64,000 nt of DNA, from NCBI RefSeq assembly GCF_050920415.1, contig NZ_CP169309.1. The stretch is one strand, 5' to 3'. Positions 5,221-55,650 of this stretch are shown here, one piece after another; the first letter of the stretch is position 1; every line of letters starts with the position of its first letter. The notes under the pieces are model-generated. The model made no database searches and had not been told where the DNA came from. It was given only the letters and a program-made list of their open reading frames with translations. The translations under genes and the position numbers were made by a program. This stretch comes from Escherichia coli (lineage in GTDB: Bacteria > Pseudomonadota > Gammaproteobacteria > Enterobacterales > Enterobacteriaceae).

Positions 5221-6330
<1,110 letters not shown>

Positions 6331-12312: not shown

Positions 12313-12335
12313 TAATATATTTCTCGACTTATTAG

Positions 12336-16337: not shown

Positions 16338-16387
16338 TATATTACCTTAATTTATTTCACATCAGCATCCCCCCTTGCAAACCACAA

Positions 16388-27678: not shown

Positions 27679-27731
27679 TTTTAACAGCAATTTCTTATTC
27701 GCAATTTTCCGTACATTATTTAAGGTTAACA

Positions 27732-28357: not shown

Positions 28358-28439
28358 GAGCACCGCTTCCATTTATAGAGCAATAGTCACCAGCGTAATT
28401 TTCTGGCACAGTTCAGGGAACTGAAATTTTGGCTAAGGA

Positions 28440-29669: not shown

Positions 29670-30077
29670 TCACCCCGCTCGATGATGACAGCAGCCGGAG
29701 AGATTTTCGATAATTGGGCAGTCGGCGCTGTCATCACCGGGGCAGGCATTCGCCAGCGCCAGTAGCTGGTCGCGCATGGATTGCAGCTCCTCAATGTGCC
29801 GTTCGATCTCCGCTACCTTCTCCAGCGTACGACGTTTGACGTCGGCACTGTGACGCTGCGGATCGTTAAACAGATTCACCAGTTCGCCGCTCTCTTCCAG
29901 GTTAAAGCCCACCTGGCGCGCCTGGCGCAGTAAGGTCAGTTCGTTGAGATGCTGCTGCGTGTAGGTTCGATAACCATTTTCGCTGCGCATCGGCGGCGTC
30001 ACTAGCCCCTTTTCTTCATAGAAGCGAATGGCTTTGCTGGTCAGGCCGGTAATTTTTGCTACATCGCTAATGTTCAT
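29670..30077 (-). CDS. cueR: MerR-family copper-responsive transcriptional regulator
   Basis: 135-aa [29 protein letters not shown]... with C-terminal metal-binding Cys pair (CPGDDSADC), matching recalled CueR. Confidence 0.92.
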
Positions 30078-31249
30078 CGTTCGCGCAACGCCTCCTGTGC
30101 TTTGTTAAAGGGTTTCAACAGATAATCCAGCACGCTTTTTTTGCCGGTGCGGATATCGACCGTCGCCACCATGCCGGGAAATATCGGAAACTGCTGTTTA
30201 TGTTTATTTTCCAGATGGTTGCTGAAAGTGCGAATGTACACCCGATAGTAATAAACATCGCGTCGCACTTCATCCTGCACGGTGTCTGGTGATATCACCG
30301 CCACTTCCCCCGGCAGGCCGCCGTAGATGGAGTAGTCGTAAGCGGTTATTTTCACCAGCGATTTTTGCCCCGGATGGATAAACGCCACATCGCGGGGGGA
30401 GATTTTTGCCTCGATCAACAGTTGCTCATCCAGCGGCACGATAGTCATAAGTTTACCACCGGGGGCGATGACGCCGCCAACCGTGGTGACGTCAATGTCC
30501 TGAACAATGCCTCGCACCGGCGCAGTAAAGTTGAGCCGGGTGAGAGAATCTTCCCGCCCGCGGATCACCGAACGCTGGGTTTCCACTTCCGCATTGGCTT
30601 TCGCTAACTCTTCCCGCGCCTGTACGTAGTATTGCGTACGCACGTCGCTAAGTTTGTTTTCCAGTTCATTGGCCTGGCGTTGCAGGCGCAGCACTTCAAC
30701 GCTGCTCGCCGCCCCCTGTTTCACCAGCGGCTGGGTCATCGCCAGTTCGCGGTTGACCAGGCTGATCCCCTGCGTCAGCCCGGTGGTGGCTTTGTTCAAC
30801 CCGTCGCGGCGAGTGTTATATAACGCCGTTTCCGACTCGATAAGTTCGGGGAATTTATTCAGTTCGTCAGGAAAGACCAGCGGTTTATTGCTCACTTCTG
30901 CCCGCAGCCGCGCCGAGGTTGCCAGCGCCGCATACAGCCGCGACATCGCTTCCTGGACGTCGGATTCCGTTTTGGTGCGGTTAAGCTGCGCCAGCGGCTG
31001 CCCCTGTTCGACAATATCGCCAACCTTCACGTCGAGATGATACAAAATCCCGCCTTCCAGCGACTGCACCACCTGTTCGCGTCCAGAAGGTTCTACCGTG
31101 CCGCTGCCGGTGGTGACTTCATCAAGCTGGAAGTACCACGCCCAGCCGAGAAAACAGAGCAGCATCACAGCGGTAACGCGCACCGCCAGCGCCGAACGTG
31201 GCAGGCGGGGTTCAGTCAGGCCACGGTTGTATTGCAGTTGTCCGTTCAT
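30074..31249 (-). CDS. type I secretion periplasmic adaptor (HlyD-family membrane fusion protein)
   Basis: 391-aa ORF with N-terminal TM segment, coiled-coil and beta-barrel domains; overlaps the ABC gene by 4 bp. Confidence 0.85.
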
Positions 31250-42400: not shown

Positions 42401-45400
42401 CTCACCGGTACGGTTAAGGTCCAGTTGCCTGCTGCGTCGGTGGTAGCGCTGTAGTTATGACCGTTGAGCGTGACGGTAACCTGTGCGCCGGTCGCCAGCC
42501 CCGTACTGCTACCGCTGATGGTCAACGGCTGGCCTTTTTCATCGGCGTTCAGGACGTTATCGCTGCTGATGGCGTTAAAGGTAATGGTCGGCAGCCCGGT
42601 ATTGACCGTCACCTGATGGGTGGCGCTGCCGCTGTTTCCGGCGGCGTCAGTGACGCTGGCGTTAATGGTCACCGTGCCGTTTGCCAGTGCCGAAACAACG
42701 CTTGCCGGGACGCCGACGCTCCAGTTGCCGCTGGCATCCAGCACCGTGGTGAAGGTATTTGTGCCGATAGTCACCGTCACGGTGTTACCGGTTGCCGCAC
42801 CCGTGGCGGAGCCGCTGATAATCTGCGCCTGGGCGTGTTCCGTCGCGTTGATCACATCATCACCCGCGACAGTGTTGATGGTGACGACCGGAACGGAAGT
42901 ATCCACCGTCAGGTTGTGGTTAACCGAGGTCGGGTTTCCGGCCTTGTCGCTCACCGCCGCGCTGACGGTGTAGATGCTGGCGGTCAGAGCGCTTAAGTCG
43001 GCTGGCGGTACGCTGATACTCCAGCTGCCGTCCGTTTGTACCGTGCCAGTATAGTTTGCGCCATTGAGCGTGACGGTCACCGTCTGCCCGGCTTCCGCCG
43101 TGCTGCTGCCAGTGATGGTCAGCGCCGCACCCGCTTCGGCGGCGTTAAGAATATCGTCGCCCGCAATGGTGTTAATGGTCACCGTTGGCGCGGTGGCATC
43201 GACGCTGTAAGCGTGGGTAGTGGTGGCACTGTTGCCGTTAACGTTGCTGACGCTGGCCTGTGCGCTGGCATCGCCATCACGCAGGGCCGCCATATCTGCC
43301 GCCGGAACCGTGGTGCTCCAGGAACCATTCGCCGCGACGCTTGCCGTGTAGGTTTTGCCGCCAAAGGTCACGGTGACCGTTTGTCCGGCTTCGACGCCGG
43401 AAGTGCTGCCGGAGAGCGTTAACGCCGCGCCTTTCTCAGCGGCGTTAATCACATCATCGGCGGTAATGGCGTTGATGCTGACCGCCACCGCCGAGAGATC
43501 GACAGTCACCGGATGGGTGACGCTGACCGGGTTTCCGGCAGTAGTGCTGCCGCTCGCCGTAATCGTCACCGCCCCCGCAGGCCAGGCGCTGACATCCACC
43601 GCCGGAACGCCGACGCTCCAGGTGCCATCCGCCAGTACCGCCGCAACATAGGTTTGCCCACTGATGGTCAGCGTGACGTTGCTGCCCGCTGCCAGACCGG
43701 AGCTGCTGCCGGTAATCACCAGCGCCTGATCGTGCTCGATAATGTTGACCACATCATCGCCCGTCACGGTGTCAATCCGCAGACCGGGCAAATTCGCGTC
43801 TATGGTGATTTCACGCGTGCCGTTGCCGGTATTGCCTACGCTGTTTGTCACCGAGGCCGAAATGGTCAGTTCACCGTTGCCCAGCGCCTGTAACGCCGGG
43901 GCCGGAACATCGACGCTCCAGCTAAAATCCGCCTGCACCGTGGCGGTGTAAGTCGCCCCGCCGAGCGTGACGGTCACCGTGTCGCCAGCCGCAGCACCCG
44001 TGACCAGCCCGTTGATAGTTTGATCTGCCCCTGCTTCGGCAGCGTTAATAATATCGTCCGTTGCCACAACGTTAATGGTGACGCCCGGCAGCGCGGTATT
44101 AACCTGCACGTTATGGCTGGCGGAACCGCTGTTACCATCGGTGTCAGTGGCGGAAGCGGTCACCGTATAACTGGCTTCACCGAGGGCGCTCACCCGTGAC
44201 GCCGGAACAGTCACGCTCCAGTTCCCGGAAGCATCGGCAGTGGTGGTGTAATTTTGCCCGTTGAGCGTAACAGTTACCTGCGTGCCCGCAGGCTGGTTGC
44301 TGGTGCCGGAAATCGACAGATCCGCGCCTTTCTCCGTGGCGTTGATGATGTCATCGACGGCGATGGTGTTAATGGCGAGTATCGGTGCACCGAGCGCCAC
44401 GCTGACAGTGTGCGAGGCCGTGCCGCTGTTGCCTGCGGAGTCGGTAACCGTGGCGGTAATGGTCACATCGCCCTGGGCCAGCGCGGAAATCACGCTGGCA
44501 GGCACACCGATGCTCCAGTTGCCGTTGGCGTCCAGCACGGTGGTGTAGGTGGTCGAGCCAATCGTCACGGAAACCGTGTTACCCGTCGTCGCGCCCGTTG
44601 CCGAGCCGCTGATAATCTGCGCCTGAGCATGTTCCGTGGCGTTAATCACGTCATCGCCCGCTACCGTGTTAATGGTGACGACCGGAGCGGCAAGGTCTAC
44701 CGTCAGGTTATGCGTTGCCGAGGCCGGATTTCCGGCTTTGTCGCTTACCGAGGCGTTGACGGTATACGAGCTGGCAGTGAGGTTAGCTAAATCGCCAGTT
44801 GGTACGCTGACGCTCCAGCTCCCGTCTGCCTGCACGTTGCCGCTGTAATTGATGCCGTTTAGCGTCACGGTCACTGTCTGCCCGGCTTCTGCGGTGCTGG
44901 TGCCGCTGATAGTCAGCGCCGATCCCGCTTCGGCGGCATTAAGAATATCGTTGCTGGCAATGGTGTTGATGGTGACGGAGGGCGCGGTGGCATCGACGCT
45001 ATAAACATGCGTTGCCTGGGCGTTGTTACCCGCGACGTTGCTGACGCTGGCCTGGACGTTTGCTGCGCCATCCGGCAAGGTTGCGAGATCGGCGGCTGGG
45101 ATCGTCAGCCCCCAGGTATTATCCGCGGCAACCGTGGTGGTGTAGCTTTTGCCACCGAAAATAACGGTAATGGTCTGCCCCGCTTCCACGCCGGAGGTGG
45201 TGCCGGAAAGCTGCAAATCAGTGCCTTTTTCGGCGGCGTTTATTACATCGTCAGTGGAGAGTGTATTGATGGTAATCGCCACGGCAGCGAGATTGACCGT
45301 GACCGGATGAGTAATGCTGGTTGTGGTTCCTGCGGTATTGGTGCCAGAGACGGCAATATTAACCGTCCCCGCAGGCCAGTCAGCCACGTCCGCTGCCGGA

Positions 45401-48400
45401 ACGCCGACGCTCCAGGTGCCATCGGCGAGTACCGTTGCGCCGTAGGTGACGTTGTTGATGACTACCGTCAACGCCGCGCCCGCCGCCAGTCCGCTACTGC
45501 TACCGGTGACCACCAGCGCCTGAGTGTGCTCAATGCTGTTAATCACATCATCGCCTGCCACGGTATCGACCCGCAGGCCTGGCAGATTGGCGTCTATCAC
45601 GATGTCGTGCGTTGCGGTGCCAGTATTATTTGCGGAATTAGTCACCGAGGCGCTGATGGTCAGTTCACCGTTACCCAGCGCCTGCAAATCTGCCGCAGGC
45701 ACGCTGACGCTCCAGCTTAAATCTGGCTGCACGGTGGCAATGTATTGATTACCACCAATAGTGACAATCACCGTATTCCCCGCAACCGCCGTCCCCGTAA
45801 CCTGTCCGCTGAGGGTCTGGTTAACGGCGATTTCAGCGGCGTTGATAATGTCATCACCCGCCACAGTATTAATGATTACCCCTGGCAGGAGCGATTCGAC
45901 ATTCACCGTATGGGTAGTACTACCGCTGTTACCCGCGCTGTCGGTGGCGCTGGCGCTAATCGAATAAACCGCCTCGCCCAGTGCGCCGACCGCCGAAGCC
46001 GGCACGGTAACGCTCCAGTTGCCGGAGCCGTCGGTGGTGGCGCTGTACGCCAGGCCGTTCAACATCACGGTGACCGTAGTGCCTGCCGCCAGGCCGCTGG
46101 AGACGCCGCTGATGATCAGATCCTGGGTTTTCTCCGCATTATTAATAATGTCATCACCGGAGACAGTGTTAATGGTCAGCGTCGGGCCACTGAGATCAAC
46201 GGTCACATCGTGAGTCGTGCTGTCGCTGTTGCCCGCGCGATCGCTCAGGCTGGCGGTGATGGTCTGGCTACCGGTTGCCAGTGCCGTGACATCCGCCGCC
46301 GGAATACCCACACTCCAGTTACCGGAGGCGTCCAGCGTTGTGGTGTAGTTTTTACCGTTCAGCGTGACGGTCACCACATCGCCTGCCGCCGCGCCCGTAC
46401 TGGTTCCGCTCACCACCAGCGCCTGCCCGTGTTCGATGGCGTTGATAATGTCATCGCCCGCGACGGTGTTAATGGTGAGATCCGGCGCGGTCACGTCCAC
46501 CGCCAGTGCATGATCCGCGCTTGCCGGATTGCCCGCTTTGTCGCTCACCGTGGCGGTCACGGTATAACTGCTGGCGGTTAATCCGCTTAAATCTGTCGCC
46601 GGAACGTTCACACTCCAGGTGCCATCGGCCTGGACGGTAGTCTGGTACGTGTTGTTATTGAGCGTGACAGTCAGCGTCTGCCCGGCCTGCGCCGTGGTGG
46701 TGCCGCTGATGGTTATCCCCGCGCCCGCTTCGCTCACGTTGAGAATATCGTCGCTGGCGATGGTGTTGATGGTCACAAGCGGCGCGGTGGCATCGACGCT
46801 GTACGCGCGATCGGCCTGGGCGCTGTTGCCGTAAATGTTGCTGACACTCGCCTGCACGTTGCCCGCGCCGTCCGGCAACGCAGCGAGATCGGCAGGCGGC
46901 ACATTCACCGTCCAGCTACCGTTGGTTTCCACAGTGGTGGTGTAATTTTTGCCGCCAAAGGTGACGGTCACCGTCTGCCCGGCTTCTACACCGCTGGTAC
47001 TGCCGCTCACCACCAGCGTTTCGCCTTTTTCGACGGCATTGATCACATCATCGCCGGAGAGAGTGTTAATGGTTATGGCGACCGCCGCCAGATCGACGGT
47101 AACCGGATGGGTAATGGTGGAGGTTGTTCCGGCACTGTTGGTGCCGCTTACCGTGATATCCACCGTACCCGCAGGCCAGTTGCTGACGTCTGCCGCCGGA
47201 ACGCCGAGGTTCCATGTGCCGTCGGCTAACACCGTGGCAGCGTAAGTGACGTTGTTAATCACGACCGTTAATGCCGTTCCTGCCGTCAGCCCGGTGCTGC
47301 TACCTGTTATCACCAGCGCCTGATTGTGCTCAATGCTGTTAATAACATCATCGCCCGCTACGGTATCGACCCGCAAACCAGGCAGATTGGCATCGATCGT
47401 AATATCGCGCGAGCCGCTGCCGGTATTACCAACGTCATTGGTGACCGAGACGTTAACTGTCAGGTCGCCGTTACCCAGCGCCTGAATATCCGCCGCTGGA
47501 ACGCTAACACTCCAGCTTAAATTAGCCTGCACCGTGGCGGTGTAGGTGTTGCCGCCCAGCGTGACGGTAACCGTATCCCCCTGCGCTGCGCCCGTGACCT
47601 GGCCGCTGATGGTCTGGGCGTTACCAGATTCAGCGGCGTTAATAATATCGTCAGTCGCCACTGCGTTAATGGTGACGGCAGGCAAGGCGCTGTTGACCAG
47701 CACATTATGGCTGGCGGAATTACTGTTGCCTGCCGTATCAGTGACGTTCGCGGTTACTGTGTAGTTAGCTTCACCCAACGCGCTAACCGCTGACACTGGC
47801 ACCGTGGCGCTCCAGTTGCCACTGCTATCGGTGGTAGCGGTGTAATTTTGTCCGTTCAGCGTCACTGTAATGGTGGTGCCTGCGGGCTGATTACTGGTGC
47901 CAGTAATTTGCAGATCCGCGCCTTTTTCTGTGGCGTTAATCACGTCATCGCTGGCGATAGTGTTGATGCCAATGGTTGGCGCGGTGAGATTTACGGTGAC
48001 CGTGCGGCTGGCATCATCGCTGTTGCCTGCCGCATCGGTAATGGCCGCAGTGATGGTTTGCGGGCCGCTGCCCAGCGCAGTGACGTCTGCTGCCGGAACG
48101 CCGACGCTCCAGTTGCCGGAGGCGTCCAGCGTGGTAGTGTAGGTTTTACTGTTTAACGTGATGGTGATGACATCGCCCGCTTCGCCGCCAGTGCTGGAAC
48201 CGGAGATCACCAGCGCCTGTCCGTGTTCGGCGGCGTTAATGATGTCATCGCCGGAGACGGTGTTAATGGTTAAAACTGGCACGGTGAGATCCACCGCCAG
48301 GCCGTGAGTGGCGGTCGCCGGGTTACCCGCTTTGTCGCTTACCGAGGCGCTGACCGTGTACGGGCTGGCGGTCAGATTGCTGAGATCTGTTGTCGGCACG

Positions 48401-51400
48401 CTGACGCTCCAGCTACCGCCCGCCTGAACGGTGCCGATGTAAGCCACACCATTAAGCGTGACGGTTACCGTTTGCCCCGCTTCGGCGGTGCTGGTGCCGC
48501 TGATGGTTAACGGATTTCCCGCCTCAGCGGCGTTAAGAATATCGTCGGTGGCGATGGTGTTAATGGCAAGCGTCGGGGCCGTGGCATCGACGCTATAGGC
48601 GTGGGTTGCCGAAGCCGTGTTGCCGTTAATATTGCTGACACTGGCCTGTACCGTGGCGTCGCCGTCACGTAACGCGCTGAGATCGGCGGTGGGTAGCGTA
48701 GTTGTCCAGCTACCATCGCCCGCTACGGTAGCGATATAGGTTTTGCCGCCAAAGGTGACGGTGACGGTTTGCCCCGCTTCCACGCCGGAAGTGCTGCCGG
48801 AAAGGGTTAAATCTGCCCCTTTTTCGGCGGCGTTAATCACATCATCGCCGGAAACGGTGTTAATGGAGATCGCCACCGCCGCCAGATCGACGGTGACCGG
48901 ATGGGTGATGGTGGAGGTTGTTCCGGCAGTGTTAGTGCCGCTTACCGTGATATCCACCGTCCCCGCAGGCCAGTTGCCCACATCTGCCGCCGGAACGCCA
49001 ACGCTCCATGTGCCATCGGCTAATACTGTCGCGCCATAGGTGACGTTATTGATCACCACCGTCAGCGCCGCGCCCGCCGCCAGCCCGCTGCTGCTACCGG
49101 TTATCACCAGTGCCTGACCGTGCTCGATGCTGTTAACCACATCATCGCCCGCCACGGTATCAACGCGCAGACCTGGCAGATTGGCATCTATCACAATATC
49201 GCGCGCACCGCTGCCAGTATTACCCACGCCGTTGGTTACCGAGGCGTTAACTGTCAGGTCGCCATTACCGATGGCCTGAATATCCGCCGCCGGAACGTCC
49301 ACGCTCCAGCTAAAATTGCCCTGCACAGTAGCGGTGTAGGTTTTCCCGCCAAGCGTCACGGTAACCGTATCGCCCGCCGCCGCGCCCGTCACCTGGCCGC
49401 TGATGGTCTGCGCCACGCCCGATTCCGCCGCGTTAATAATATCGTCGGTCGCCACCGGATTAATGGTGACACCCGGCAGCGCGGTATTCACCTCCACGTT
49501 ATGGCTGGCGGAATTGCTGTTGCCCGCGCTGTCGGTGACGTTCGCCGTCACCGTGTAACTGGCTTCGCCCAGCGCACCGACGGCAGAGGCTGGCACCGTG
49601 GTGCTCCAGTTGCCTGCGGCGTCCGTCGTGGCGGAGTAATTTTGCCCGTTAAGCGTCACCGTAATTGTGGTGCCTGTTGGCTGATTACTGGTGCCGGAAA
49701 TTTGCAGATCCGCGCCTTTTTCCGTGGCATTAATCACGTCATCGCTGGCAATGGGGTTGATGCCAATGGTCGGCGCGGTAAGGTTAACGGTGACCGTGTG
49801 CGTCTCGTTGTCGCTGTTGCCAGCCACATCGGTAACGGTCGCCGTCACGGTTTGCGGGCCGCTGCCCAGCGCAGAGACATCCGCAGCCGGAACGCCGACG
49901 CTCCAGTTGCCGGAGGCATCCAGGGTGGTGGTGTAGGTTTTATTGTTTAGCGTGACGCTGACGATATCGCCCGCCTCCCCGCCAGTGCTGGAACCGGAAA
50001 TCACCAGCGCCTGCCCGTGTTCGGCGGCGTTAATAATATCATCGCCCGCAATGGTGTTAATGGTCAGTACCGGAACGGTGAGATCCACCGCCAGATTATG
50101 CGTGGTGCTCGCCGGGTTGCCCGCTTTGTCATTAACCGTGGCGGTCAGGGTGTGGCTGCCATCCGTCAATGCCTCAAGGTCTGCCGCCGGAATAGTAATA
50201 CTCCAGCTGCCGTCGGCCTGTACCGTTGCCTGATAGGTCTGCACGGTCGGGCTATTGAGCGTTACCGTAACAATCTGCCCCGCTTCAGCGGTGGTGGTGC
50301 CGCTCACCGTCACACCCGCATCGGCTTCGCTGGCGTTGACGATATTGTCGCTGGCGACGGTATTGATAATGATGGTTGGCGCGCTGCTATCGACGCTGTA
50401 GTTATGCACCGCCGAGGCGCTATTGCCATTGATATTGCTGACGCTGGCCTGCGCGGAGGCGCTGCCCTCAGGTAATGCTGCCAGATCGGCGGCAGGAACG
50501 GTGGCAGTCCAGCTACCATCGCTCGCCACGCTGGCGGTGTAATTTTTCCCGCCAAAGGTGACGGTGACGGTTTGACCGGGTTCTACATTCGTGGTGGTGC
50601 CGGAAAGGGTTAAATCAGCGCCTTTTTCTGCGGCGTTAATCACGTCGTCCGTAGCGATGGTGTTGATGGTGATCGCCGCTGGCGTGAGATCGACCGTTAC
50701 CGGATGCGTAATGCTTATCGGATTTCCGGCGCTACTTTCCCCGGACACAGTAACCGTCACTGTTCCCGCAGGCCAGGCGCTAACCTGCGCCGCCGTGACG
50801 CCCACGCTCCAGCCACCATCGGCCAGCACCGCAGTGGTGTATTCCACATTGTTAATCATAACGGTAAGCGGCGTGCCTTCTGCCAGCCCCGAGCTGCTGC
50901 CGCTGACCACCAGCGCCTGCCCGTGTTCGATGATATTGACCACATCATCACCCGCCACCGTATCGACCCGCAGACCGGGCAGATTGGCGTCGATGGTGAT
51001 ATCCCGCGTGCCGCTGCCGGTGTTGCCGTTTTGATTGGTGACCGAGGCGCTCACCGTTAAATCACCATTACCCAGCGCCTGAATATCCGCCGCCGGAACG
51101 CTCACGCTCCAGCTTAAACCGGCCTGCACGGTGGCGGTGTAAGTATTACCGCCAAGCGTAACGGTTACCGCGTCGCCAACGGCGGCTCCGGTAACCTGCC
51201 CGCTGATGGTTTGCGCAACGCCCGCTTCGGCGGCGTTAATAATATCGTCGGTTGCCACCGGGTTAATGGTCACGCCGGGCAACGCGCTGTCGACCAGCAT
51301 GTTATGGCTGGCGGTGGCGCTGTTACCGATACCGCTGGTCACTGCTGCTGTCACCGTATAGTTGGCCTGGCCCAAGGCGGTTACCGCCGATGCCGGAACG

Positions 51401-54186
51401 GTGACGCTCCAGTTGCCGGAAGAGTCGGTCGTGGTGGTGTAATTTTGCCCGTTCAGCGTCACTGTGATGGCGGTATTGGCAGGCTGATCGCTGGTGCCGG
51501 TAATCTGGAGATCGGCTCCTTTTTCGCTGGCGTTGATCACATCATCGCCCGCGATAGTGTTAATGCCAATCACCGGCGCGGCGGTATCAACCGTGACGGT
51601 CAATGACTGGCTGCCGCTGTTTCCAGCGCGGTCAGTCACTGAAACGTTGATCGGATAACTGCCGTCCACCAGTCCGCTGACAACGGAGGCCGGAACGCCC
51701 AGACTCCAGTTGCCGGAAGCATCCACCACCGTGGTGTAATCCACATTATTCAGCGTCACGGTGACAATATCACCCGCCTGCGCGCCGGTGACCGTGCCGC
51801 TGATAATTTGCGCCTGAGTGTGTTCCGGCGTGTTAATGACGTTATCGGTTGCCACCGGATTAATGGTCACCACGGGCGGCGTGGCATCGACCAGCGCCAC
51901 CCGTGAGACGCTGGTCGGATTACCCGCGACATCGTTCACGCTGGCGGTCACCGTGGCGTTGCCGTCAGCCAGTACGCCAACGTTGGCGGCGGGAACGGTC
52001 ACGCTCCAGGTGCCATCTGACTGCACGACGCCCTGATAGGTCTGCCCATTAAGCGTGACGGTCACCGTCTGCCCCGACTGGGCGTCGGTGATGCCAGTGA
52101 TTTGCAGATCCTGACCACTTTCGGCGGCGTTGATGATGTTATCAGCCGTCAGCGAGTCAATGCTTAAGGCCGGGGCCTGGCTGTCGACGGTAATGGTGCG
52201 GGAGGTGTTGCCGGTATTGCCGCTGAGATCCGTCACTGAAGCGGTAATCGCCACCGCGCCGTCAGGCAGATTTCCCATCGCGGCGGCAGGTACCGTCAGA
52301 CTCCAGGAGCCATCGGCCTGTACGGTAGTGGTAAAACTCTGTCCAGCCAGGGTTACTGTGACAGTTTGTCCTGTCTCGGCCTGTTGAGTGCTACCGGTAA
52401 GGGTCAGTGGCGCACCTTTTTCTGCGCCACTGATAATGTCATCGCCGGAGACGGTGTTAATGGTGATCAACGGAGAAACACCGACCAGCGTGATTGCTCG
52501 AGACGCCGCGCCGGTATTTCCTGCAGCATCTGTCACGGTGACGAAAATCGTATTGGCTCCGCGATCCAGCGTGCGGGTTACCGCCGGGTCCAGTGCCACA
52601 TTCCAGCTGCCATCTGCCAGCACGATGCCCGTCAGGACATGAGTGCCCAATTTCACCGTTACCGTATCGCCTGGAGAAGCACCGCTGACTTGTCCGGAGA
52701 TGATCTGCGCGACGGCCTGCTCGGCATTATTAAGAATATCGTCGCCCGCCACGGTGTTAACGCTGACCACGGGTGCTGAGGTGTCTACCGTGAAATTCGC
52801 GCTGTTGCTGGTGGTGTTCCCTGCCCGATCGCTGACACTGGCATTGACAGCGTAGTTCCCCTCCGCCAGTGCCTGGACCTCCGTGGCAGGCAGCGTCACT
52901 TGCCAGGTTCCGTCGCTACCGACGGTTGCTGAATGGCTTTTCCCGTTAACGTTCAGTGTTACGGTTTGCCCGGCTTCTGCGTTCGAAGTGCCGCTCACTA
53001 CCAGCGCGGCGTTATGTTCTGAGGCGCTGACAATGTTGTCCTGAGCGATGGTGTTGATAGCAAGTGTTGGCGGCTGGGTATCGACCGTTAGCAGCTGCGC
53101 TCCGGTGACCGTATTGCCCGTGGCATCTTTCCCACTGACCAGCACCGCCTGATTCCCTTCGCCTAACGCTTGCGCGTCGGCGGTCGGCACCTGCACGCTC
53201 CACGCGCCGTTAGCGCCTACGCTGGTGGTGTAGGTTTTACCATTTAGCGTGACGGTGAGTTCGGTTCCCTGCGCCAGGTTGCTCGTCGTGCCAGAAAGCG
53301 TAAACCCGGCGGCCTGTTCGCTGGCGTTAATGATGTTATCGCCTGCGGTGGTGGCAACCTGTACGACAGCCTGACTATTGTCGATGGTTAACGTTATCGA
53401 CCCAGCGTTGGTAATGGTGCTGCCGACGATTTGCACCACTGACCAGGTATGTTCGCCCGCGCTTTGTGTGGGTAAATCGACGCTCCAGCGCCCGTTGCTG
53501 TCTACCTGAGTGCTGGCGATAGTATTGCCGTTACTGTCTTTGATCTGAATGGTCGCCCCCGCCTGACCGCTGCCGCTAAAGGTTGGCGTGGTGTCATCGG
53601 TGATATCGTTGGCGGAAAGAATACCGCGTTGATCGCCCTGATTATCGGTTACCAAAAACGATGGCGTGGCATTGCCGGGTTCGGCTGGCGGTGGGTTGTT
53701 AACCACTTCAGTTTTTGAGTCATCATCACCACCGCTTGCCAGTAAAGCGCCAAGCGCGCCACCACCTACCGCGGCACCCGCTAACCATCCCCACGGGAAG
53801 GCACTGGTCTGAGCGACGGTATCAAGATACGGCGCAATGCTTTCAATTGCGGTAGTCTGAGCGGTCAGCTCCACGGGCGCTAATCCACCCGCCGCGGTAT
53901 CGGCAAAGGTGACATGAGTCAGCTGTTGACCATCGGCAAACACCAGTTGAGATTGTTCGCTGGTATTTGCCGCTTGCAGGAAATAACCGTTGCAGCGGAT
54001 CACCGTGCCGTCTTGCATATAGATCAACAGGTCATTTCCGTCACGGACATAACGCACAACGGCAGATGCCTGAGCATGAACCTGCACTACAGAGGGCTCA
54101 TAAATGACAACCGTAACGTCGCCTGGATTAATCAGCGTTTGTTTGACGGATGTTTTTCGCGAAATAACATCAATAATCAGGCTCAT
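33412..54186 (-). CDS. giant T1SS-secreted repeat adhesin (6,924 aa; BapA/SiiE/LapA-like) with Ig-like repeat array, FG-GAP/VCBS-like region, RTX-like repeats and C-terminal secretion signal
   Basis: Single uninterrupted 20.8-kb ORF; dozens of about 100-aa Ig-like repeats (…TINTVAGDDIINAAEHGQALVISGS…GNWSVGVPAADV…); Asp-rich motifs DFDGDGDMDLF, DWDHDGLMDI and DYDWDGAVDV; glycine/aspartate nonapeptides GSSGDNQLEGRGGNDTLNIGNGGHDTL near the C-terminus; flanked by T1SS OMP, ABC and MFP genes. Confidence 0.9.
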   Translation of the reverse strand: MSLIIDVISRKTSVKQTLINPGDVTVVIYEPSVVQVHAQASAVVRYVRDGNDLLIYMQDGTVIRCNGYFLQAANTSEQSQLVFADGQQLTHVTFADTAAGGLAPVELTAQTTAIESIAPYLDTVAQTSAFPWGWLAGAAVGGGALGALLASGGDDDSKTEVVNNPPPAEPGNATPSFLVTDNQGDQRGILSANDITDDTTPTFSGSGQAGATIQIKDSNGNTIASTQVDSNGRWSVDLPTQSAGEHTWSVVQIVGSTITNAGSITLTIDNSQAVVQVATTAGDNIINASEQAAGFTLSGTTSNLAQGTELTVTLNGKTYTTSVGANGAWSVQVPTADAQALGEGNQAVLVSGKDATGNTVTGAQLLTVDTQPPTLAINTIAQDNIVSASEHNAALVVSGTSNAEAGQTVTLNVNGKSHSATVGSDGTWQVTLPATEVQALAEGNYAVNASVSDRAGNTTSNSANFTVDTSAPVVSVNTVAGDDILNNAEQAVAQIISGQVSGASPGDTVTVKLGTHVLTGIVLADGSWNVALDPAVTRTLDRGANTIFVTVTDAAGNTGAASRAITLVGVSPLITINTVSGDDIISGAEKGAPLTLTGSTQQAETGQTVTVTLAGQSFTTTVQADGSWSLTVPAAAMGNLPDGAVAITASVTDLSGNTGNTSRTITVDSQAPALSIDSLTADNIINAAESGQDLQITGITDAQSGQTVTVTLNGQTYQGVVQSDGTWSVTVPAANVGVLADGNATVTASVNDVAGNPTSVSRVALVDATPPVVTINPVATDNVINTPEHTQAQIISGTVTGAQAGDIVTVTLNNVDYTTVVDASGNWSLGVPASVVSGLVDGSYPINVSVTDRAGNSGSQSLTVTVDTAAPVIGINTIAGDDVINASEKGADLQITGTSDQPANTAITVTLNGQNYTTTTDSSGNWSVTVPASAVTALGQANYTVTAAVTSGIGNSATASHNMLVDSALPGVTINPVATDDIINAAEAGVAQTISGQVTGAAVGDAVTVTLGGNTYTATVQAGLSWSVSVPAADIQALGNGDLTVSASVTNQNGNTGSGTRDITIDANLPGLRVDTVAGDDVVNIIEHGQALVVSGSSSGLAEGTPLTVMINNVEYTTAVLADGGWSVGVTAAQVSAWPAGTVTVTVSGESSAGNPISITHPVTVDLTPAAITINTIATDDVINAAEKGADLTLSGTTTNVEPGQTVTVTFGGKNYTASVASDGSWTATVPAADLAALPEGSASAQASVSNINGNSASAVHNYSVDSSAPTIIINTVASDNIVNASEADAGVTVSGTTTAEAGQIVTVTLNSPTVQTYQATVQADGSWSITIPAADLEALTDGSHTLTATVNDKAGNPASTTHNLAVDLTVPVLTINTIAGDDIINAAEHGQALVISGSSTGGEAGDIVSVTLNNKTYTTTLDASGNWSVGVPAADVSALGSGPQTVTATVTDVAGNSDNETHTVTVNLTAPTIGINPIASDDVINATEKGADLQISGTSNQPTGTTITVTLNGQNYSATTDAAGNWSTTVPASAVGALGEASYTVTANVTDSAGNSNSASHNVEVNTALPGVTINPVATDDIINAAESGVAQTISGQVTGAAAGDTVTVTLGGKTYTATVQGNFSWSVDVPAADIQAIGNGDLTVNASVTNGVGNTGSGARDIVIDANLPGLRVDTVAGDDVVNSIEHGQALVITGSSSGLAAGAALTVVINNVTYGATVLADGTWSVGVPAADVGNWPAGTVDITVSGTNTAGTTSTITHPVTVDLAAVAISINTVSGDDVINAAEKGADLTLSGSTSGVEAGQTVTVTFGGKTYIATVAGDGSWTTTLPTADLSALRDGDATVQASVSNINGNTASATHAYSVDATAPTLAINTIATDDILNAAEAGNPLTISGTSTAEAGQTVTVTLNGVAYIGTVQAGGSWSVSVPTTDLSNLTASPYTVSASVSDKAGNPATATHGLAVDLTVPVLTINTVSGDDIINAAEHGQALVISGSSTGGEAGDVITITLNSKTYTTTLDASGNWSVGVPAADVTALGSGPQTITAAITDAAGNSDDASRTVTVNLTAPTIGINTIASDDVINATEKGADLQITGTSNQPAGTTITVTLNGQNYTATTDSSGNWSATVPVSAVSALGEANYTVTANVTDTAGNSNSASHNVLVNSALPAVTINAVATDDIINAAESGNAQTISGQVTGAAQGDTVTVTLGGNTYTATVQANLSWSVSVPAADIQALGNGDLTVNVSVTNDVGNTGSGSRDITIDANLPGLRVDTVAGDDVINSIEHNQALVITGSSTGLTAGTALTVVINNVTYAATVLADGTWNLGVPAADVSNWPAGTVDITVSGTNSAGTTSTITHPVTVDLAAVAITINTLSGDDVINAVEKGETLVVSGSTSGVEAGQTVTVTFGGKNYTTTVETNGSWTVNVPPADLAALPDGAGNVQASVSNIYGNSAQADRAYSVDATAPLVTINTIASDDILNVSEAGAGITISGTTTAQAGQTLTVTLNNNTYQTTVQADGTWSVNVPATDLSGLTASSYTVTATVSDKAGNPASADHALAVDVTAPDLTINTVAGDDIINAIEHGQALVVSGTSTGAAAGDVVTVTLNGKNYTTTLDASGNWSVGIPAADVTALATGSQTITASLSDRAGNSDSTTHDVTVDLSGPTLTINTVSGDDIINNAEKTQDLIISGVSSGLAAGTTVTVMLNGLAYSATTDGSGNWSVTVPASAVGALGEAVYSISASATDSAGNSGSTTHTVNVESLLPGVIINTVAGDDIINAAEIAVNQTLSGQVTGTAVAGNTVIVTIGGNQYIATVQPDLSWSVSVPAADLQALGNGELTISASVTNSANNTGTATHDIVIDANLPGLRVDTVAGDDVINSIEHTQALVVTGSSSGLAAGAALTVVINNVTYGATVLADGTWSVGVPAADVADWPAGTVNIAVSGTNTAGTTTSITHPVTVNLAAVAITINTLSTDDVINAAEKGTDLQLSGTTSGVEAGQTITVIFGGKSYTTTVAADNTWGLTIPAADLATLPDGAANVQASVSNVAGNNAQATHVYSVDATAPSVTINTIASNDILNAAEAGSALTISGTSTAEAGQTVTVTLNGINYSGNVQADGSWSVSVPTGDLANLTASSYTVNASVSDKAGNPASATHNLTVDLAAPVVTINTVAGDDVINATEHAQAQIISGSATGATTGNTVSVTIGSTTYTTVLDANGNWSIGVPASVISALAQGDVTITATVTDSAGNSGTASHTVSVALGAPILAINTIAVDDIINATEKGADLSISGTSNQPAGTQVTVTLNGQNYTTTADASGNWSVTVPASRVSALGEASYTVTASATDTDGNSGSASHNVQVNTALPGVTINVVATDDIINAAEAGADQTINGLVTGAAAGDTVTVTLGGATYTATVQADFSWSVDVPAPALQALGNGELTISASVTNSVGNTGNGTREITIDANLPGLRIDTVTGDDVVNIIEHDQALVITGSSSGLAAGSNVTLTISGQTYVAAVLADGTWSVGVPAVDVSAWPAGAVTITASGSTTAGNPVSVTHPVTVDLSAVAVSINAITADDVINAAEKGAALTLSGSTSGVEAGQTVTVTFGGKTYTASVAANGSWSTTVPAADMAALRDGDASAQASVSNVNGNSATTTHAYSVDATAPTVTINTIAGDDILNAAEAGAALTITGSSTAEAGQTVTVTLNGANYTGTVQTDGSWSISVPPADLSALTASIYTVSAAVSDKAGNPTSVNHNLTVDTSVPVVTINTVAGDDVINATEHAQAQIISGSATGAATGNTVTVTIGTNTFTTVLDASGNWSVGVPASVVSALANGTVTINASVTDAAGNSGSATHQVTVNTGLPTITFNAISSDNVLNADEKGQPLTISGSSTGLATGAQVTVTLNGHNYSATTDAAGNWTLTVPVSDLAALGQANYTVSASATSAAGNTASSQANLLVDSGLPGVTINTVADDDIINAAEAGADQTISGVVTRAAAGDTVTVTLGGNTYTATVQGNLSWSVTVPAADLQALGNGDLTINASVTNANGNTGSGTRDITIDANLPGLRVDTVAGDDIVNSIEHGQALVITGGSSGLNAGTVLTVTINSVAYSATVQADGSWSVGIPAANVSAWPAGPLTVEVAGQSSAGNPVSVSHPFTVDLTAVAISINTVASDDVINAAEKGTNLTLSGSTSGIESGQTVTVTFGGKNYTASVAANGSWSVNVPAADLATLPDGAANVQASVSSASGNSASATHAYSVDASAPTLTINTIASDDILNATEAGSPLTISGTSTAETGQTVTVTLNGATYTGNVQADGSWSVSVPTSALGALTASNYTVSATVNDKAGNPGSASHNLAVDTTAPVLTINTVAGDDIINDAEHAQALVISGTSTGGEAGDVVSVVLNGKTYTTTLDASGNWSVGVPTADVTALGSGAQSITASVSDRAGNSDDASRTVTVNLTAPAISINTIAGDDVINATEKGSDLALSGTSDQPAGTAITVTLNGQNYSATTDASGNWSVTVPASAVSALGEATYSVTASVTNAQGNSSTASHNVQVNTALPGVTINPVATDDIINASEAGSAQTISGQVTGAAAGSTVTVTLGGKTYTATVQPDLSWNVSVPAADWQALGNGELTVNASVTNAVGNTGSSTRDITIDASLPGLRVDTVAGDDVVNIIEHAQAQVITGSSSGFTAGTALTVVINNQTYAATVLANGTWSVGIPAADVSNWPAGTLNITVSGANSAGTQTSITHPLSVDLTTVAISINAITPDDVINAAEKGAALTLSGSTSGVEAGQTVTITFGGKTYTTTVAANGSWSTTVPAADMAALRDGDASAQVRVTNVNGNSATATHEYSIDSAAPTVTINTIASDNIINASEAAAGVTVSGTSTAETGQTLTVTLNGTNYQTTVQADGSWSLTLPASDLTALANNGYTLTATVSDLAGNPGSASKGVTVDTTAPVISFNTVAGDDVINNVEHSQAQIISGTATGAVAGDRLVVTIAGLQYVTSTDASGNWSVGVPASVVSGLADGTVTISATITDSAGNSSTQTHNVQVNTAVVSLSVSTISGDNIINAAEAGSALTLSGTGTNFATGTVVTVLLNGKGYSATIQNNGSWSVNVSAADVAALADGTSYTVSASAQDSAGNSATASRSVAVDLTAPVININTVSTDDRLNAAEQQQPLTLNGSTSAEVGQTVTVTFGGKTYTATVAANGTWALNVPAADLAALGQGAQTITASVNDRAGNPGQTTHALTVDTVAPTVTIATVAGDDIINNAEQLAGQTISGTTTAEVGQTVTVTFNGQTWTATVGSGGSWSVFIPAQQFAGLSDGSYTISATVSDQAGNPGSASRGVTLNGDVPTVTINTFAGDDVVNAAEHGASLVISGTTTAPVGQTLTLTLNGKTYTTTVQTGGSWSYTLGSADVTALADGNAYVINASVSNAIGNIGSSNHTITVDLSAPAMGINIDSLQADTGLSASDFITSVSPVVVNGSLTAALASNETAQISIDGGITWSTLTVTGTTWRYNDSRTLTDGNYLYQVRVIDAAGNVGATDSQNVVIDTTAPDPAVKTIAISAITTDTGLITNDFVTSDTTLAVSGTLGAALSAGEFAQISIDGGTTWQNLAVNGLTWTYLDGRTLTDGNYNYQVRVIDTAGNIGATASQIVTVDTTAPLASKTIVIAGISDDTGLSSSDFVTRDTTLTVRGTLGAALAADERAQISLDGGVTWATLTVIGTSWSYADGRTLTDGTWNYTVRVVDLAGNVGQTATQNVVVDTIIPEAAKSITITGISDDTGASSSDFITSDTTLTVRGVLGAALGANEFAQISTDNGSTWVNVTVAADGLNWTYVDGRTLTNGTTTWQVRVVDLAGNVGATGSQSAQIDTVNPAQVLTIASISTDTGSSATDFITSDTTLTLTGSLGAGLASGEVAQISLDGGATWTTLTTNGTQWTYTDSRTLTDGSYVYQVRVLDLAGNTGPVVSKTVVVDTINPTATPTIVSYTDDVGQRQGTLSSSQATDDTTPLLNGVLSAPLASGEVVYLYRNGLLLGAVTMVGALNWTYSDSGLVSGAYTYSARVVDLAGNITSSSDFILTVDTSIPTTLAQITNQTTRDTTPIISGVITAALASGQYVEVVINGKTYTSQPGGAVVVDPAHNTWYVQLPDTDALAASATAYNVTAQVKSSAGNGNTANVSTGTVTVNAAIDYTPTWTTTSKSTAWGLTYGLDTHGMWTVLANQQIMQSTDPLTWSKTALTLVQSGNNYATSSIADYNRNGTGDLFITRDDYGTGYINGFTNNGDGTFSSAIQVNVGTLTWYGSIVAFDKEGDGYLDFWIGDAGGPDSNTFLWNNAGTLTGNSTTANNGGSATVGGAVTGYLSLNEGSGVDLNNDGRIDLVQHTFNLNNNFTLSSLISQGNGTFVWGQNTVNTFLSSPGSGGNSASVSMTWADFDGDGDMDLFLPASQGRANYGSLLFNTNGVLGSPVAVGATATTYASQFSLAVDWDHDGLMDIARIAQTGQSYLYTNVSNASNWTQSALGGSQSGTTSGVAAMDYDWDGAVDVLVTKQSGSVFLIRNTNTVSYGTSLHLRITDPNGINVYYGNTVKLYNSAGVLVATQIINPQSGMGVNDTSALVNFYGLNAGETYNAVLIKSTGTTASNIDQTVNTTWGGLQATDATHAYDLSAEAGTASNNGKFVGTGYNDTFFATAGTDTYDGSGGWVYSSGTGTWLANGGMDVVDFRLSTVGVTANLSVTTAQATGFNTSTFTNIEGISGSNFNDTLTGSSGDNQLEGRGGNDTLNIGNGGHDTLLYKLLNASDATGGNGSDVVNGFTVGTWEGTADTDRIDIRELLQGSGYTGNGKASYVNGVATLDAQVGNIGDFVKVTQSGSDTIVQIDRDGTGGGFATTNVVTLTGVHTDLATLLANHQLMVV
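38000..52000. repeat. tandem array of about 1.8-kb super-repeats inside the adhesin gene (about 7-8 copies; approximate bounds)
   Basis: Antisense ORF-track artefacts with near-identical sequence recur at 1,794-1,797-bp spacing (39764, 41558, 43355, 46949, 48743); the motif LPGLRVDTVAGDDV recurs 7 times about 600 aa apart in the protein. Confidence 0.7.
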
Positions 54187-54294: not shown

Positions 54295-55650
54295 TTATTT
54301 CAAGTCGGGTAAGTCGTTGTATAAGCCCTGCTTAATTCCCGCTAATGGAATAAGGTTATTCACCGCAGCGGCATAATTCACAGCGGCAACCCAGCCATCA
54401 TAATTGACATTTATTTCAGCTGATTGCGCCTGAAAGACATCTTGCTCAACGGTTAAGAGATCGTTCAGGCTGCGTTTACCCAATTTATATTCATTTTGGT
54501 ACACATCTCGCGTTCTGTGCGCACTTTCAGATTGCGCTAACCCAGCCTCTTCACGACCCCGTGCCCCAGTCCAGTTGGCATACGCCACCGACGCCCGTTG
54601 CATAACATCTAATTTCGCCTGCTCAACCTGCGACGCGGATATTTTTTGTTGCCCTTCGGCTTGCTGAACCTGAGCCGAAACCGCGCCGCCCTGATACAAC
54701 GGCGCGTTGACGTTCAACTGTAACTGGTCGTCCCAGTACGAGCGGTCGCTGGTCTGGTAGCGTGTTTTGCCGCCCTGAATACTGAGCGTCGGCCAGTATT
54801 GCGCTTTCGTTTTTTCCACACCGTACTGTGCTGACTGGCGTAAGTTTTCTGCCGCCAGCACCAGTGGGATGGACTGGTAATCAATATTTTTCAGCGATAC
54901 CGGCTGCTCGGCTAATTCAGCAGGTGGCGCGGCTATCGCCTCCGGCTGTACGCCAGTAAGCACCGCCAGTTGCGCTTTGGCGCTCGCCATCTGCGCTTGA
55001 TATTTCTCCAGGGTTGAGCGCATTCCGGCAATACGCGTCTGGGCCTGTAATTCATCCGACGATGAGTTCAGGCCAGCGTTAGCGCGCAGCGCCGCCATGT
55101 TGTAGACGTTTTCCAGCGAGTGGATATTGCGTTGAGCCGCATCGCACAACGCCTGATAACGACTGACCTCCATATAGGCAGTCGCCGTTTTTTCGGCAAC
55201 ATCGGTTAAAGTTGCCATCAATTTAAAGCGGTAGCTGTCACGAGCGGCGGTTTGCAGTTTGATATCGTTATCTGTTTTACCGAAGTCATACACCAGCTGT
55301 GTCAGGGTTATGCCATACGAAACGTTGTTATCAAGCCTGCCGCTGGAGTCCGTTTGCCGTGACGGCCCCGCGTTGCTGGTTAATCCAACGTGTGGATACC
55401 AGGCACTTTTGGCTTCATCAATTTGCGCTTCGCCAATACCTATCTGCGCCGCCTGTTGAGTGACGTCGGGATTTCGCGCAAAGGCGCGTAATATACTTTC
55501 CTGTAAAGATAATCGGGCAACTGGCGTTACCGCTGGGGCGTTCGCCCATTGTGGCAGCGGTGCAGCAATTGTAGCTTCTCCCATCACCATAAAACTTATT
55601 AAAAAAATAAGTCCATTATTTTTACGGTTTTTAAACTGGAATCGCGCCAT
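54295..55650 (-). CDS. TolC-family outer membrane channel of the T1SS
   Basis: 451-aa ORF with signal peptide and two-repeat OEP architecture rich in Q/A coiled-coil segments; first gene of the apparent T1SS operon. Confidence 0.82.
   Translation of the reverse strand: MARFQFKNRKNNGLIFLISFMVMGEATIAAPLPQWANAPAVTPVARLSLQESILRAFARNPDVTQQAAQIGIGEAQIDEAKSAWYPHVGLTSNAGPSRQTDSSGRLDNNVSYGITLTQLVYDFGKTDNDIKLQTAARDSYRFKLMATLTDVAEKTATAYMEVSRYQALCDAAQRNIHSLENVYNMAALRANAGLNSSSDELQAQTRIAGMRSTLEKYQAQMASAKAQLAVLTGVQPEAIAAPPAELAEQPVSLKNIDYQSIPLVLAAENLRQSAQYGVEKTKAQYWPTLSIQGGKTRYQTSDRSYWDDQLQLNVNAPLYQGGAVSAQVQQAEGQQKISASQVEQAKLDVMQRASVAYANWTGARGREEAGLAQSESAHRTRDVYQNEYKLGKRSLNDLLTVEQDVFQAQSAEINVNYDGWVAAVNYAAAVNNLIPLAGIKQGLYNDLPDLK

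What the first reader, a model, noticed from the sequence alone, without database searches (positions are those of the whole stretch)
53700..54186. Adhesin N-terminus has a LapA-like retention module signature with a TAAG di-alanine motif, but no lapG/lapD in the island
Residues 97-100 are T-A-A-G (nucleotides 53887-53898), about 30 residues upstream of a Gly/Ala-rich hydrophobic stretch (FPWGWLAGAAVGGGALGALLASGG). In LapA-type adhesins a di-alanine motif near residue 100 is the cleavage site for the periplasmic protease LapG, whose activity is controlled by the c-di-GMP receptor LapD. No lapG or lapD homologue flanks this T1SS, so either they are encoded elsewhere, or the adhesin is retained by another mechanism or is constitutively surface-anchored.
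Basis: partly seen in the sequence, partly recalled or inferred. Interest (0 to 1): 0.55.

Follow-up and report, generated by a model that had tools for sequence, protein, structure and literature searches.

The report
Chance TAAG in BapA-type adhesin N-terminus
The T-A-A-G tetrapeptide is real, but it lies in a variable loop of the already-annotated BapA-type N-terminal domain of the E. coli giant adhesin SiiEA and is very unlikely to be a LapG cleavage site, so the finding is largely ordinary.

Summary
The window is E. coli chromosome. The gene at 54186..33412 (-) is the 6924-aa "BapA-related adhesin SiiEA". It sits in a four-gene type 1 secretion (T1SS) island (TolC-like, siiEA, ABC, MFP) between ybaT and cueR, present in 958 of 5426 complete E. 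coli genomes.

All sequence facts in the finding check out: TAAG at residues 97-100, the Gly/Ala-rich stretch at 130-153, and no lapG/lapD in the 64 kb.

The LapA-like reading fails every test I could run:
- The N-terminus matches BapA_N (PF22783, NF033677, NF047714). It does not match the LapA retention-module model NF033682, which scores 80-151 bits on positive controls.
- Profile-profile probability against LapA/MpIBP modules is 0.3%.
- In a high-confidence AF2 model, TAAG lies in a loop inside the folded beta domain, preceded by a strand and "AD". LapG sites have a targeting helix plus "DP".
- The motif occurs at that loop in only 2 of 86 other homologue clusters.
- Six homologous loci show no LapG/LapD.

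What is conserved (72 of 77 homologues) is the beta domain followed by an uncharged Gly/Ala segment. I infer a LapG-independent stopper or anchor. Whole-genome absence of LapG/LapD could only be tested weakly.

The parts
33412..54186 (-). siiEA CDS, 6924 aa giant T1SS adhesin
   Evidence: ORF list. NF047714 adhesin_SiiEA scores 451 bits against a cut-off of 425. PGAP names it 'BapA-related adhesin SiiEA' in the 100% identical record NZ_CP169399.1.
53809..54186 (-). Residues 1-126: BapA prefix-like all-beta domain
   Evidence: Pfam BapA_N PF22783 matches residues 5-132, E = 4e-19. NF033677 scores 70 bits against a cut-off of 35. The AF2 model built with 52 sequences has pLDDT mostly >90 over residues 1-126 and 11 strands. 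The AFDB50 top 50 hits are BapA prefix-like domain proteins or unnamed fragments.
53887..53898 (-). T97-A98-A99-G100 tetrapeptide, in the loop between strands 89-94 and 105-107
   Evidence: Coordinates. Loop position. The motif is present at the aligned loop in only 3 of 87 representative homologues, one of which is the E. coli SiiEA cluster itself. It is kept in 5 sampled E. coli alleles.
53827..53844 (-). Residues 115-120, S-I-A-P-Y-L, the family-conserved 'S-I-x-P-L-L' motif at the end of the domain
   Evidence: Alignment A1 consensus is '...PLL'. The strict motif is found in 42 of 88 sequences.
53728..53808 (-). Residues 127-153: uncharged Gly/Ala/Leu-rich segment TSAFPWGWLAGAAVGGGALGALLASGG
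   Evidence: It is the longest uncharged run in the protein. Kyte-Doolittle 19-residue maximum is 1.4, and 8 of 24 residues are Gly. AF2 pLDDT is <50 here. An uncharged run of >=18 aa starting near residue 128 is present in 72 of 77 homologues.
53653..53727 (-). Residues 154-178: acidic and Pro-rich linker DDDSKTEVVNNPPPAEPGNATPSF
   Evidence: Translation. Homologues carry poly-Gly or acidic sequence at the same place.
53437..53649 (-). Residues 180-250: first Ig-like extender domain
   Evidence: Pfam Big_13 matches residues 180-250 and Big_6 matches 193-246.
33784..33888 (-). C-terminal RTX nonapeptide repeats, preceded by Big_13 and FG-GAP_3 domains
   Evidence: Pfam HemolysinCabind, E = 1.7e-4, in the last 999 residues.
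54295..55650 (-). Dedicated TolC-family outer-membrane protein of the T1SS
   Evidence: TIGR01844 scores 411 bits against a cut-off of 225. PGAP annotation agrees.
31246..33408 (-). T1SS ABC permease/ATPase of the LssB/LapB class
   Evidence: TIGR03375 type_I_sec_LssB scores 836 bits against a cut-off of 693. The HlyB model scores 390, below its cut-off of 726.
30074..31249 (-). HlyD-family membrane fusion protein
   Evidence: TIGR01843 scores 328 bits against a cut-off of 209.

Best explanation
The 5' end of siiEA encodes the standard N-terminal module of BapA-family type-1-secreted adhesins. It has four parts: a ~125-residue all-beta 'BapA prefix-like' domain, whose core resembles the HCBP_related modules found next to RTX repeats; a conserved S-I-x-P-L-L motif; a ~25-residue uncharged Gly/Ala-rich segment; and a Gly/acidic/Pro linker that leads into the Ig-like extender array.

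The TAAG tetrapeptide is a lineage-specific sequence in a variable surface loop of that domain, not a LapG site. This adhesin is not under LapG/LapD control.

Inferred mechanism, not shown: the protein is exported C-terminus first through its own LssB/LapB-class ABC transporter, MFP and dedicated TolC-like pore. The N-terminal domain and/or the Gly/Ala segment are the last to enter and stall translocation. This would leave the adhesin threaded through, or lodged at, its dedicated pore without a dedicated release protease.
For: Identity of the gene and its N-terminus:
- NF047714, NF033677 and PF22783 all match.
- The AFDB50 hits are BapA prefix-like domain proteins from Enterobacterales and Acinetobacter.

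Not a LapA-type module:
- NF033682 retention_LapA is silent on SiiEA, even at E<=10. It scores 80-151 bits on the MpIBP 5IX9 segment, two Marinomonas homologues and a LapA N-terminus.
- SiiEA does not hit 5IX9 by sequence, whereas the LapA N-terminus does at 7e-11.
- hhalign of alignment A1 against A3 gives probability 0.3%.

Context of TAAG:
- It sits in the loop between strands 89-94 and 105-107 of a domain modelled at pLDDT >90.
- It is preceded by a strand and 'AD'. LapG sites have a targeting helix plus 'DP' and lie between the module and the conduit-spanning segment (PMC13090378).

Conservation:
- The motif occurs at the aligned loop in 2 of 86 non-E. coli clusters. The loop is 5-18 residues long and variable.
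- The uncharged segment is present in 72 of 77 homologues.

Linkage:
- No PF06035 or LapD-type gene lies within 10 kb of six BapA_N adhesin genes, nor in this window.

Plausibility of stalling:
- The ABC transporter meets the TIGR03375 cut-off and a dedicated TolC-like gene is present.
- These are the features that Smith et al. (bioRxiv 10.1101/198937) associate with adhesins retained in their pore.
Against: - TAAG is strictly kept in the five sampled E. coli alleles at 89-94% nucleotide identity. All of the surrounding residues are kept too, so this is uninformative rather than contrary.
- Exact TAAG near residue 100 has only a 1-2% chance expectation.
- Absence of LapG/LapD from the rest of this genome was not shown at protein level. 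I only have a DNA-level null against 5426 E. coli genomes and a plasmid tblastn in which Escherichia is not among the ten commonest of 26 genera.
- No experiment on SiiEA retention was found in the literature searched. The stopper or anchor role of the module is inference by analogy.
- Salmonella BapA is, to my knowledge (Latasa 2005, not read here), only loosely cell-associated.
Confidence: 0.72

Rival explanations
1. TAAG is a genuine LapG-type scissile site. LapG and LapD (or analogues) are encoded elsewhere in the chromosome and release SiiEA when c-di-GMP falls.
For: The exact canonical tetrapeptide lies near residue 100, as in LapA (10.1101/198937). The ABC transporter is of the LssB/LapB class and the pore is dedicated. 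The motif is kept in sampled E. coli alleles.
Against: - There is no LapA-type module by HMM, sequence or profile comparison.
- There is no targeting helix or DP motif.
- The site lies inside the folded domain.
- It is not conserved in 84 of 86 other clusters.
- No LapG/LapD lies in the window or at six related loci.
- Pseudomonas lapGD DNA finds nothing in 5426 E. coli genomes.
Confidence: 0.05
2. The Gly/Ala segment is a true membrane anchor. It partitions into a membrane and tethers the adhesin, rather than the beta domain acting as a plug.
For: It is the longest uncharged run in the protein at 27 residues, with a WGW interfacial-type start and GxxxG-like spacing. It is conserved in 72 of 77 homologues.
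Against: Hydropathy reaches only 1.4 and the segment is one-third Gly. There are no flanking basic residues; both sides are neutral or acidic. AF2 gives no confident helix. No route for lateral release from a T1SS conduit is known.
Confidence: 0.13
3. There is no specific retention. SiiEA is fully secreted and only loosely associated with cells or matrix. The N-terminal module then serves folding or secretion (an HCBP_related-like cap) or matrix interaction.
Against: A dedicated TolC-like gene and an LssB/LapB-class ABC transporter accompany these adhesins. The N-terminal module is under strong purifying selection: about 11% nucleotide but about 5% amino-acid divergence. Current descriptions of RTX adhesins treat N-terminal domains as retention-domain variants (10.1101/2025.09.30.679566).
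Confidence: 0.1

Closest known systems
Salmonella enterica BapA with the BapBCD T1SS, and the wider 'BapA prefix-like domain' adhesins (Acinetobacter Bap/BLP, Enterobacterales homologues)
   Same: They share the same N-terminal family (PF22783, NF033677). They share the same order of parts: beta domain, uncharged Gly/Ala segment, Gly/acidic linker, Ig-like repeats. They have an adjacent TolC-like/ABC/MFP operon, with the ABC transporter 46-69% identical in related loci.
   Different: SiiEA is much larger at 6924 aa. It is an E. coli-specific allele family with its own NCBIfam exception model, inserted between ybaT and cueR. The TAAG loop sequence is peculiar to the E. coli alleles.
LapA/MpIBP-type retention module (NF033682; PDB 5IX9) with the LapG/LapD c-di-GMP release circuit
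   Same: The general layout is shared: a giant T1SS adhesin with an N-terminal non-repeat beta domain, a Gly-rich linker, an LssB/LapB-class ABC transporter and a dedicated TolC-like pore (10.1101/198937). A [T/A/P]AAG tetrapeptide lies near residue 100.
   Different: - No sequence, HMM or profile similarity.
- No targeting helix or DP motif.
- TAAG lies within the fold, not after it.
- The motif is not conserved.
- No LapG/LapD is linked.
Salmonella SiiE (the namesake) with SiiA/SiiB
   Same: It is a giant Ig-repeat T1SS adhesin of an enterobacterium encoded in an island. The gene name derives from it ('adhesin for cattle intestine colonization').
   Different: The SiiE N-terminus is a coiled-coil flanked by beta-sheets, and its retention involves the MotAB-like SiiAB (PMC6272769; PMC12607715). 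The E. coli island has no siiA/siiB, and SiiEA has a BapA_N start and a C-terminal RTX repeat.
HCBP_related (PF06594) modules and RTX-block capping structures

Membership tests
LapA-type retention-module adhesins (LapG substrates) | N-terminal retention module recognised by NF033682 / homologous to MpIBP RI-N (PDB 5IX9) | tested here: not met
   There is no NF033682 hit at E<=10, while the controls score 80-151 bits against a cut-off of 50. phmmer against the PDB finds no 5IX9 hit, whereas a LapA N-terminus hits it at 7e-11. hhalign gives probability 0.3%.
LapA-type retention-module adhesins (LapG substrates) | [T/A/P]AAG scissile motif near residue ~100 | tested here: met
   TAAG lies at residues 97-100. 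Its chance expectation is 1-9%, and it is not conserved in the family.
LapA-type retention-module adhesins (LapG substrates) | Targeting helix plus conserved 'DP' turn immediately before the motif, with the site lying between the module and the conduit-spanning segment (PMC13090378) | tested here: not met
   The preceding residues LTHVTF form a beta strand followed by 'AD'. Strands 105-107 and 109-114 of the same domain follow the motif.
LapA-type retention-module adhesins (LapG substrates) | LapG (PF06035) and LapD encoded next to the adhesin/T1SS | tested here: not met
   The PGAP annotation lists none. tblastn of LapG and LapD against the window gives a best E of 0.58. The neighbouring 409-aa ORF has no Pfam hit.
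LapA-type retention-module adhesins (LapG substrates) | LapG and LapD present somewhere in the genome | tested here: inconclusive
   Only weak tests were possible. blastn of Pseudomonas lapG-lapD against 5426 E. coli genomes finds no match. tblastn of LapG against 72,556 plasmids hits 128 records, and Escherichia is not among the ten commonest genera. A protein-level scan of the chromosome was not possible with these tools.
LapA-type retention-module adhesins (LapG substrates) | LssB/LapB-class ABC transporter and a dedicated TolC-like pore | tested here: met
   TIGR03375 scores 836 bits against a cut-off of 693. A TolC-family gene is adjacent.
BapA-family / SiiEA adhesins | BapA prefix-like N-terminal domain | tested here: met
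   PF22783 E = 4e-19. NF033677 scores 70 bits against a cut-off of 35, and NF047714 scores 451 against 425. The AFDB50 top hits agree.
BapA-family / SiiEA adhesins | Uncharged Gly/Ala segment after the prefix domain | tested here: met
   It spans residues 127-153 and is present in 72 of 77 homologues.
BapA-family / SiiEA adhesins | Ig-like repeat array, C-terminal RTX/T1SS region and an adjacent T1SS operon | tested here: met
   Big_13 and Big_6 domains, FG-GAP_3 and HemolysinCabind all match. TolC-like, ABC and MFP genes are adjacent.

The most novel reading that the evidence does not exclude
The BapA prefix domain plus the conserved WGW-Gly/Ala segment is a distinct, protease-independent class of T1SS adhesin retention device. 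It is unrelated in sequence to the LapA/MpIBP module and widespread in Enterobacterales and Acinetobacter. The Gly-zipper-like segment would lodge in or beside the dedicated TolC-like pore. E. coli SiiEA would then be constitutively anchored, with release, if any, by a route other than LapG.
Probability: 0.35. Interest if true: 0.5.

Novelty: already known. Interest (0 to 1): 0.2.

Why it matters
The practical value is a caution. A [T/A/P]AAG tetrapeptide near residue 100 of a T1SS adhesin is not enough to call a LapG substrate. The retention-module HMM, the targeting helix plus DP context, and linkage to LapG/LapD are all needed.

The residual open question is how BapA-type adhesins are held on, or released from, the cell. 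These adhesins are present in about 18% of complete E. coli genomes and in many Enterobacterales and Acinetobacter. The conserved uncharged Gly/Ala segment after the prefix domain has no described function in the literature I could search, and it is a direct target for deletion experiments.

Tried and rejected
- Single-sequence AF2 gave a poor model (pLDDT 52). It was replaced by a 52-sequence alignment run.
- Word-indexed protein searches were too shallow or too crowded. The SiiEA N-terminus found only E. coli fragments. The 5IX9 segment found 4 hits. The LapG query listed only the best 120 of 5628 hits, those named all Pseudomonas or a metagenome, so it could not show whether E. coli has a homologue.
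These supplied real LapG and LapD sequences. They held no LapA N-terminus, because lapA is convergent and too long.
The remembered LapA N-terminus is used only as a control and is validated by its NF033682 and 5IX9 matches.
- Foldseek against the PDB gave nothing significant.
- The FEBS J 2018 and J Bacteriol 2018 retention-module papers are not held.
- Literature searches for 'SiiEA' or 'BapA prefix' found only annotation-level mentions.
- I considered whether the 409-aa ORF beside cueR could be a cryptic protease or receptor. It has no Pfam or NCBIfam match and no signal peptide.

Full report
**What the window is**

A 2.6-kb piece around the finding is 100% identical to the chromosome of E. 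coli strain MFDS1022581 (NZ_CP169399.1). It matches 958 of 5426 complete E. coli genomes, always once and always chromosomally.

PGAP annotates the 6924-aa ORF at 54186..33412 (-) as 'siiEA: BapA-related adhesin SiiEA'. It is flanked by a TolC-family gene upstream and by a T1SS permease/ATPase and a HlyD-family adaptor downstream. The four genes sit between ybaT and cueR.

NCBIfam agrees:
- NF047714 adhesin_SiiEA scores 451 bits (cut-off 425).
- TIGR01844 TolC scores 411 bits.
- TIGR03375 LssB-type ABC scores 836 bits (cut-off 693), while the HlyB model scores 390, below its cut-off.
- TIGR01843 HlyD scores 328 bits.

The C-terminal 1000 residues carry Big_13, FG-GAP_3 and an RTX nonapeptide match. 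[quoted passage not shown] I found no functional study of it.

**Check of the observation**

Translation gives ...LTHVTFAD-TAAG-GLAPVELTAQTTAIESIAPYLDTVAQTSAFPWGWLAGAAVGGGALGALLASGGDDD....
- TAAG is residues 97-100, nt 53887-53898.
- The Gly/Ala stretch is residues 130-153, nt 53728-53799.
- No lapG or lapD lies in the 64 kb. The annotation lists none. tblastn with real Pseudomonas LapG and LapD and Legionella LapG gives only noise (best E 0.58), against 1e-130 on control loci. The unannotated 409-aa neighbour has no Pfam hit.

On chance: from composition, the relaxed motif [TAP]AA[GV] is expected in residues 70-150 in 6-9% of such proteins and exact TAAG in 1-2%. The relaxed motif occurs eight times along this Ala/Gly/Thr-rich protein.

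**What the N-terminus is**

- Pfam places BapA_N (PF22783) on residues 5-132, followed by Ig-like domains from residue 180. NCBIfam gives NF033677 'BapA prefix-like domain'.
- An exhaustive HMMER search of 1.84 billion cluster representatives found 126 relatives. Most match from their own residue 1 through to about residue 160.
- With a 52-sequence alignment (A1), AF2 models residues 1-126 as an all-beta domain with pLDDT mostly above 90. Residues 127-152 fall below 50.
- Foldseek against AFDB50 returns 477 hits at E<=0.001. The top 50 are overwhelmingly annotated 'BapA prefix-like domain-containing protein', the rest being unnamed or generically named fragments. They come from Enterobacter, Citrobacter, Hafnia, Pantoea, Pectobacterium, Cronobacter, Halomonas and Acinetobacter.
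- Consistently, residues ~43-116 match internal repeats of other proteins. In the one such protein scanned (P0064), Pfam calls those repeats HCBP_related, PF06594.

**Tests of the LapA-like reading**

(a) Family model. NCBIfam has a dedicated model, NF033682 'retention_LapA'. It scores 80-151 bits (cut-off 50) on the MpIBP fragment of PDB 5IX9, on two Marinomonas homologues and on a LapA N-terminus. It gives nothing on SiiEA residues 1-175, even at E<=10.

(b) Sequence. The LapA N-terminus finds 5IX9 at 7e-11. SiiEA finds nothing relevant in the PDB at E<=10.

(c) Profile-profile. A1 against an alignment of LapA/MpIBP modules (A3) gives probability 0.3%.

(d) Context. According to PMC13090378, LapG cleaves between the retention module and the conduit-spanning segment. 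The optimal site is a targeting helix, a conserved DP turn, then [T/A/P]AAG. The MpIBP sequence shows exactly this (...IDALQNAILAGDDPTLIQDAPAAG). In SiiEA the motif follows beta strand 89-94 and 'AD'. It is itself followed by strands 105-107 and 109-114 of the same confidently modelled domain. It is therefore a loop within the fold.

(e) Conservation. I aligned 87 representative N-termini, each standing for a cluster at 50% identity. Only three have [TAP]AA[GV] in the loop aligned to residues 92-108, and one of those is the E. coli SiiEA cluster itself. The nearest non-E. coli relatives read NADAAVG, DTGEASG, DAGEVAG and DAADTVG. The loop varies from 5 to 18 residues. Within E. coli the motif is kept in five sampled alleles at 89-94% nucleotide identity. 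However, the whole module is 95-96% identical at protein level, so this carries no specific signal. One database cluster reads AAAG and a singleton reads TEAG.

(f) Linkage. Six loci encoding BapA_N adhesins from different lineages show no PF06035 and no LapD-type gene within 10 kb. Four of them have the orthologous TolC/ABC/MFP set. In the Pseudomonas locus examined in detail (L035), lapG and lapD lie directly beside the 3' end of a large convergent ORF that, by my knowledge of the Pf0-1 gene order, is lapA.

**What I could not settle**

I could not scan the rest of the chromosome at protein level. Only weak tests were possible:
- Pseudomonas lapG-lapD DNA finds nothing in 5426 E. coli genomes. 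blastn detects roughly 65-70% identity or better.
- LapG tblastn against 72,556 plasmids hits 128 records, dominated by Vibrio and rhizobia. Escherichia is not among the ten commonest of 26 genera, though PLSDB, to my knowledge, holds many E. coli plasmids.
- The E. coli pangenome was reported to hold 35 GGDEF/EAL genes (PMC5052742). To my knowledge none is LapD-like and K-12 has no BTLCP gene, but that rests on memory.

**What is conserved, and the likely mechanism**

An uncharged run of 18 or more residues starts near residue 128 in 72 of 77 homologues, and it is Gly-rich in 53 of them.

In SiiEA this run is the longest uncharged stretch of the whole protein (27 residues). It starts with WGW and is one-third Gly. 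Its hydropathy is only moderate (Kyte-Doolittle maximum 1.4). It has no basic flanks and is followed by DDD and a Pro-rich linker.

- Shown here: the family assignment, the architecture, its conservation, and the absence of LapA-type features.
- Inferred: that the module stalls export and holds the adhesin at its pore without a release protease.

The alternatives are a true membrane anchor, or no retention at all as has been described for BapA. Neither is excluded.

**Verdict**

The tetrapeptide is real but is best explained as a coincidental, lineage-specific loop sequence in a known domain of a known, curated adhesin. The LapG/LapD hypothesis is improbable (about 5%). The modest residual interest is the uncharacterised role of the conserved prefix-domain/Gly-Ala module in BapA-type adhesins.

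Noticed in passing
window 25934-29669: There is a second small insertion between ybbJ and cueR, which are adjacent in K-12 to my knowledge. It holds a 120-aa ORF (-), a YadA C-terminal-anchor protein (26662-27678), a lipoprotein-like 140-aa ORF, a 68-aa membrane ORF, and a 409-aa ORF (28440-29669) with no Pfam or NCBIfam match.
   Followed up: partly
window ~6273-16744: Next to ybbP lies an IS2 copy, an ISAs1 transposase fragment and an orphan T6SS vgrG/tssI (13117-15522, -), followed by several hypothetical ORFs. This is probably an orphan VgrG-effector island.
   Followed up: no
L091 (E. coli O157:H7 7.1_Anguil) and L094 (O55:H7 DEC5B): siiEA is annotated as a pseudogene (frameshift, internal stop) in the O157:H7 strain. 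It lacks its N-terminus in the O55:H7 strain, so the adhesin is decaying in that lineage.
   Followed up: partly
window 53695-54186: The first 492 nt are only 80-90% identical in 773 of 958 genomes. The sampled alleles are nevertheless 95-96% identical in protein. This indicates strong purifying selection on the N-terminal module across deeply diverged alleles.
   Followed up: partly
[not shown]
   Followed up: partly
L003 28183-36041: In the closest non-E. coli locus (adhesin N-terminus 57% identical), two EAL-domain genes, one of them GerE-EAL, lie just downstream of the T1SS genes. This hints at a c-di-GMP link of a kind other than LapD/LapG.
   Followed up: no
L088 1-9925 and L087 21716-31553: One BapA_N adhesin is flanked by two T1SS gene sets, one of which has a Peptidase_C39-bearing ABC transporter. 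Another sits beside TraI/TraD/TraG conjugation genes with no T1SS within 10 kb.
   Followed up: no
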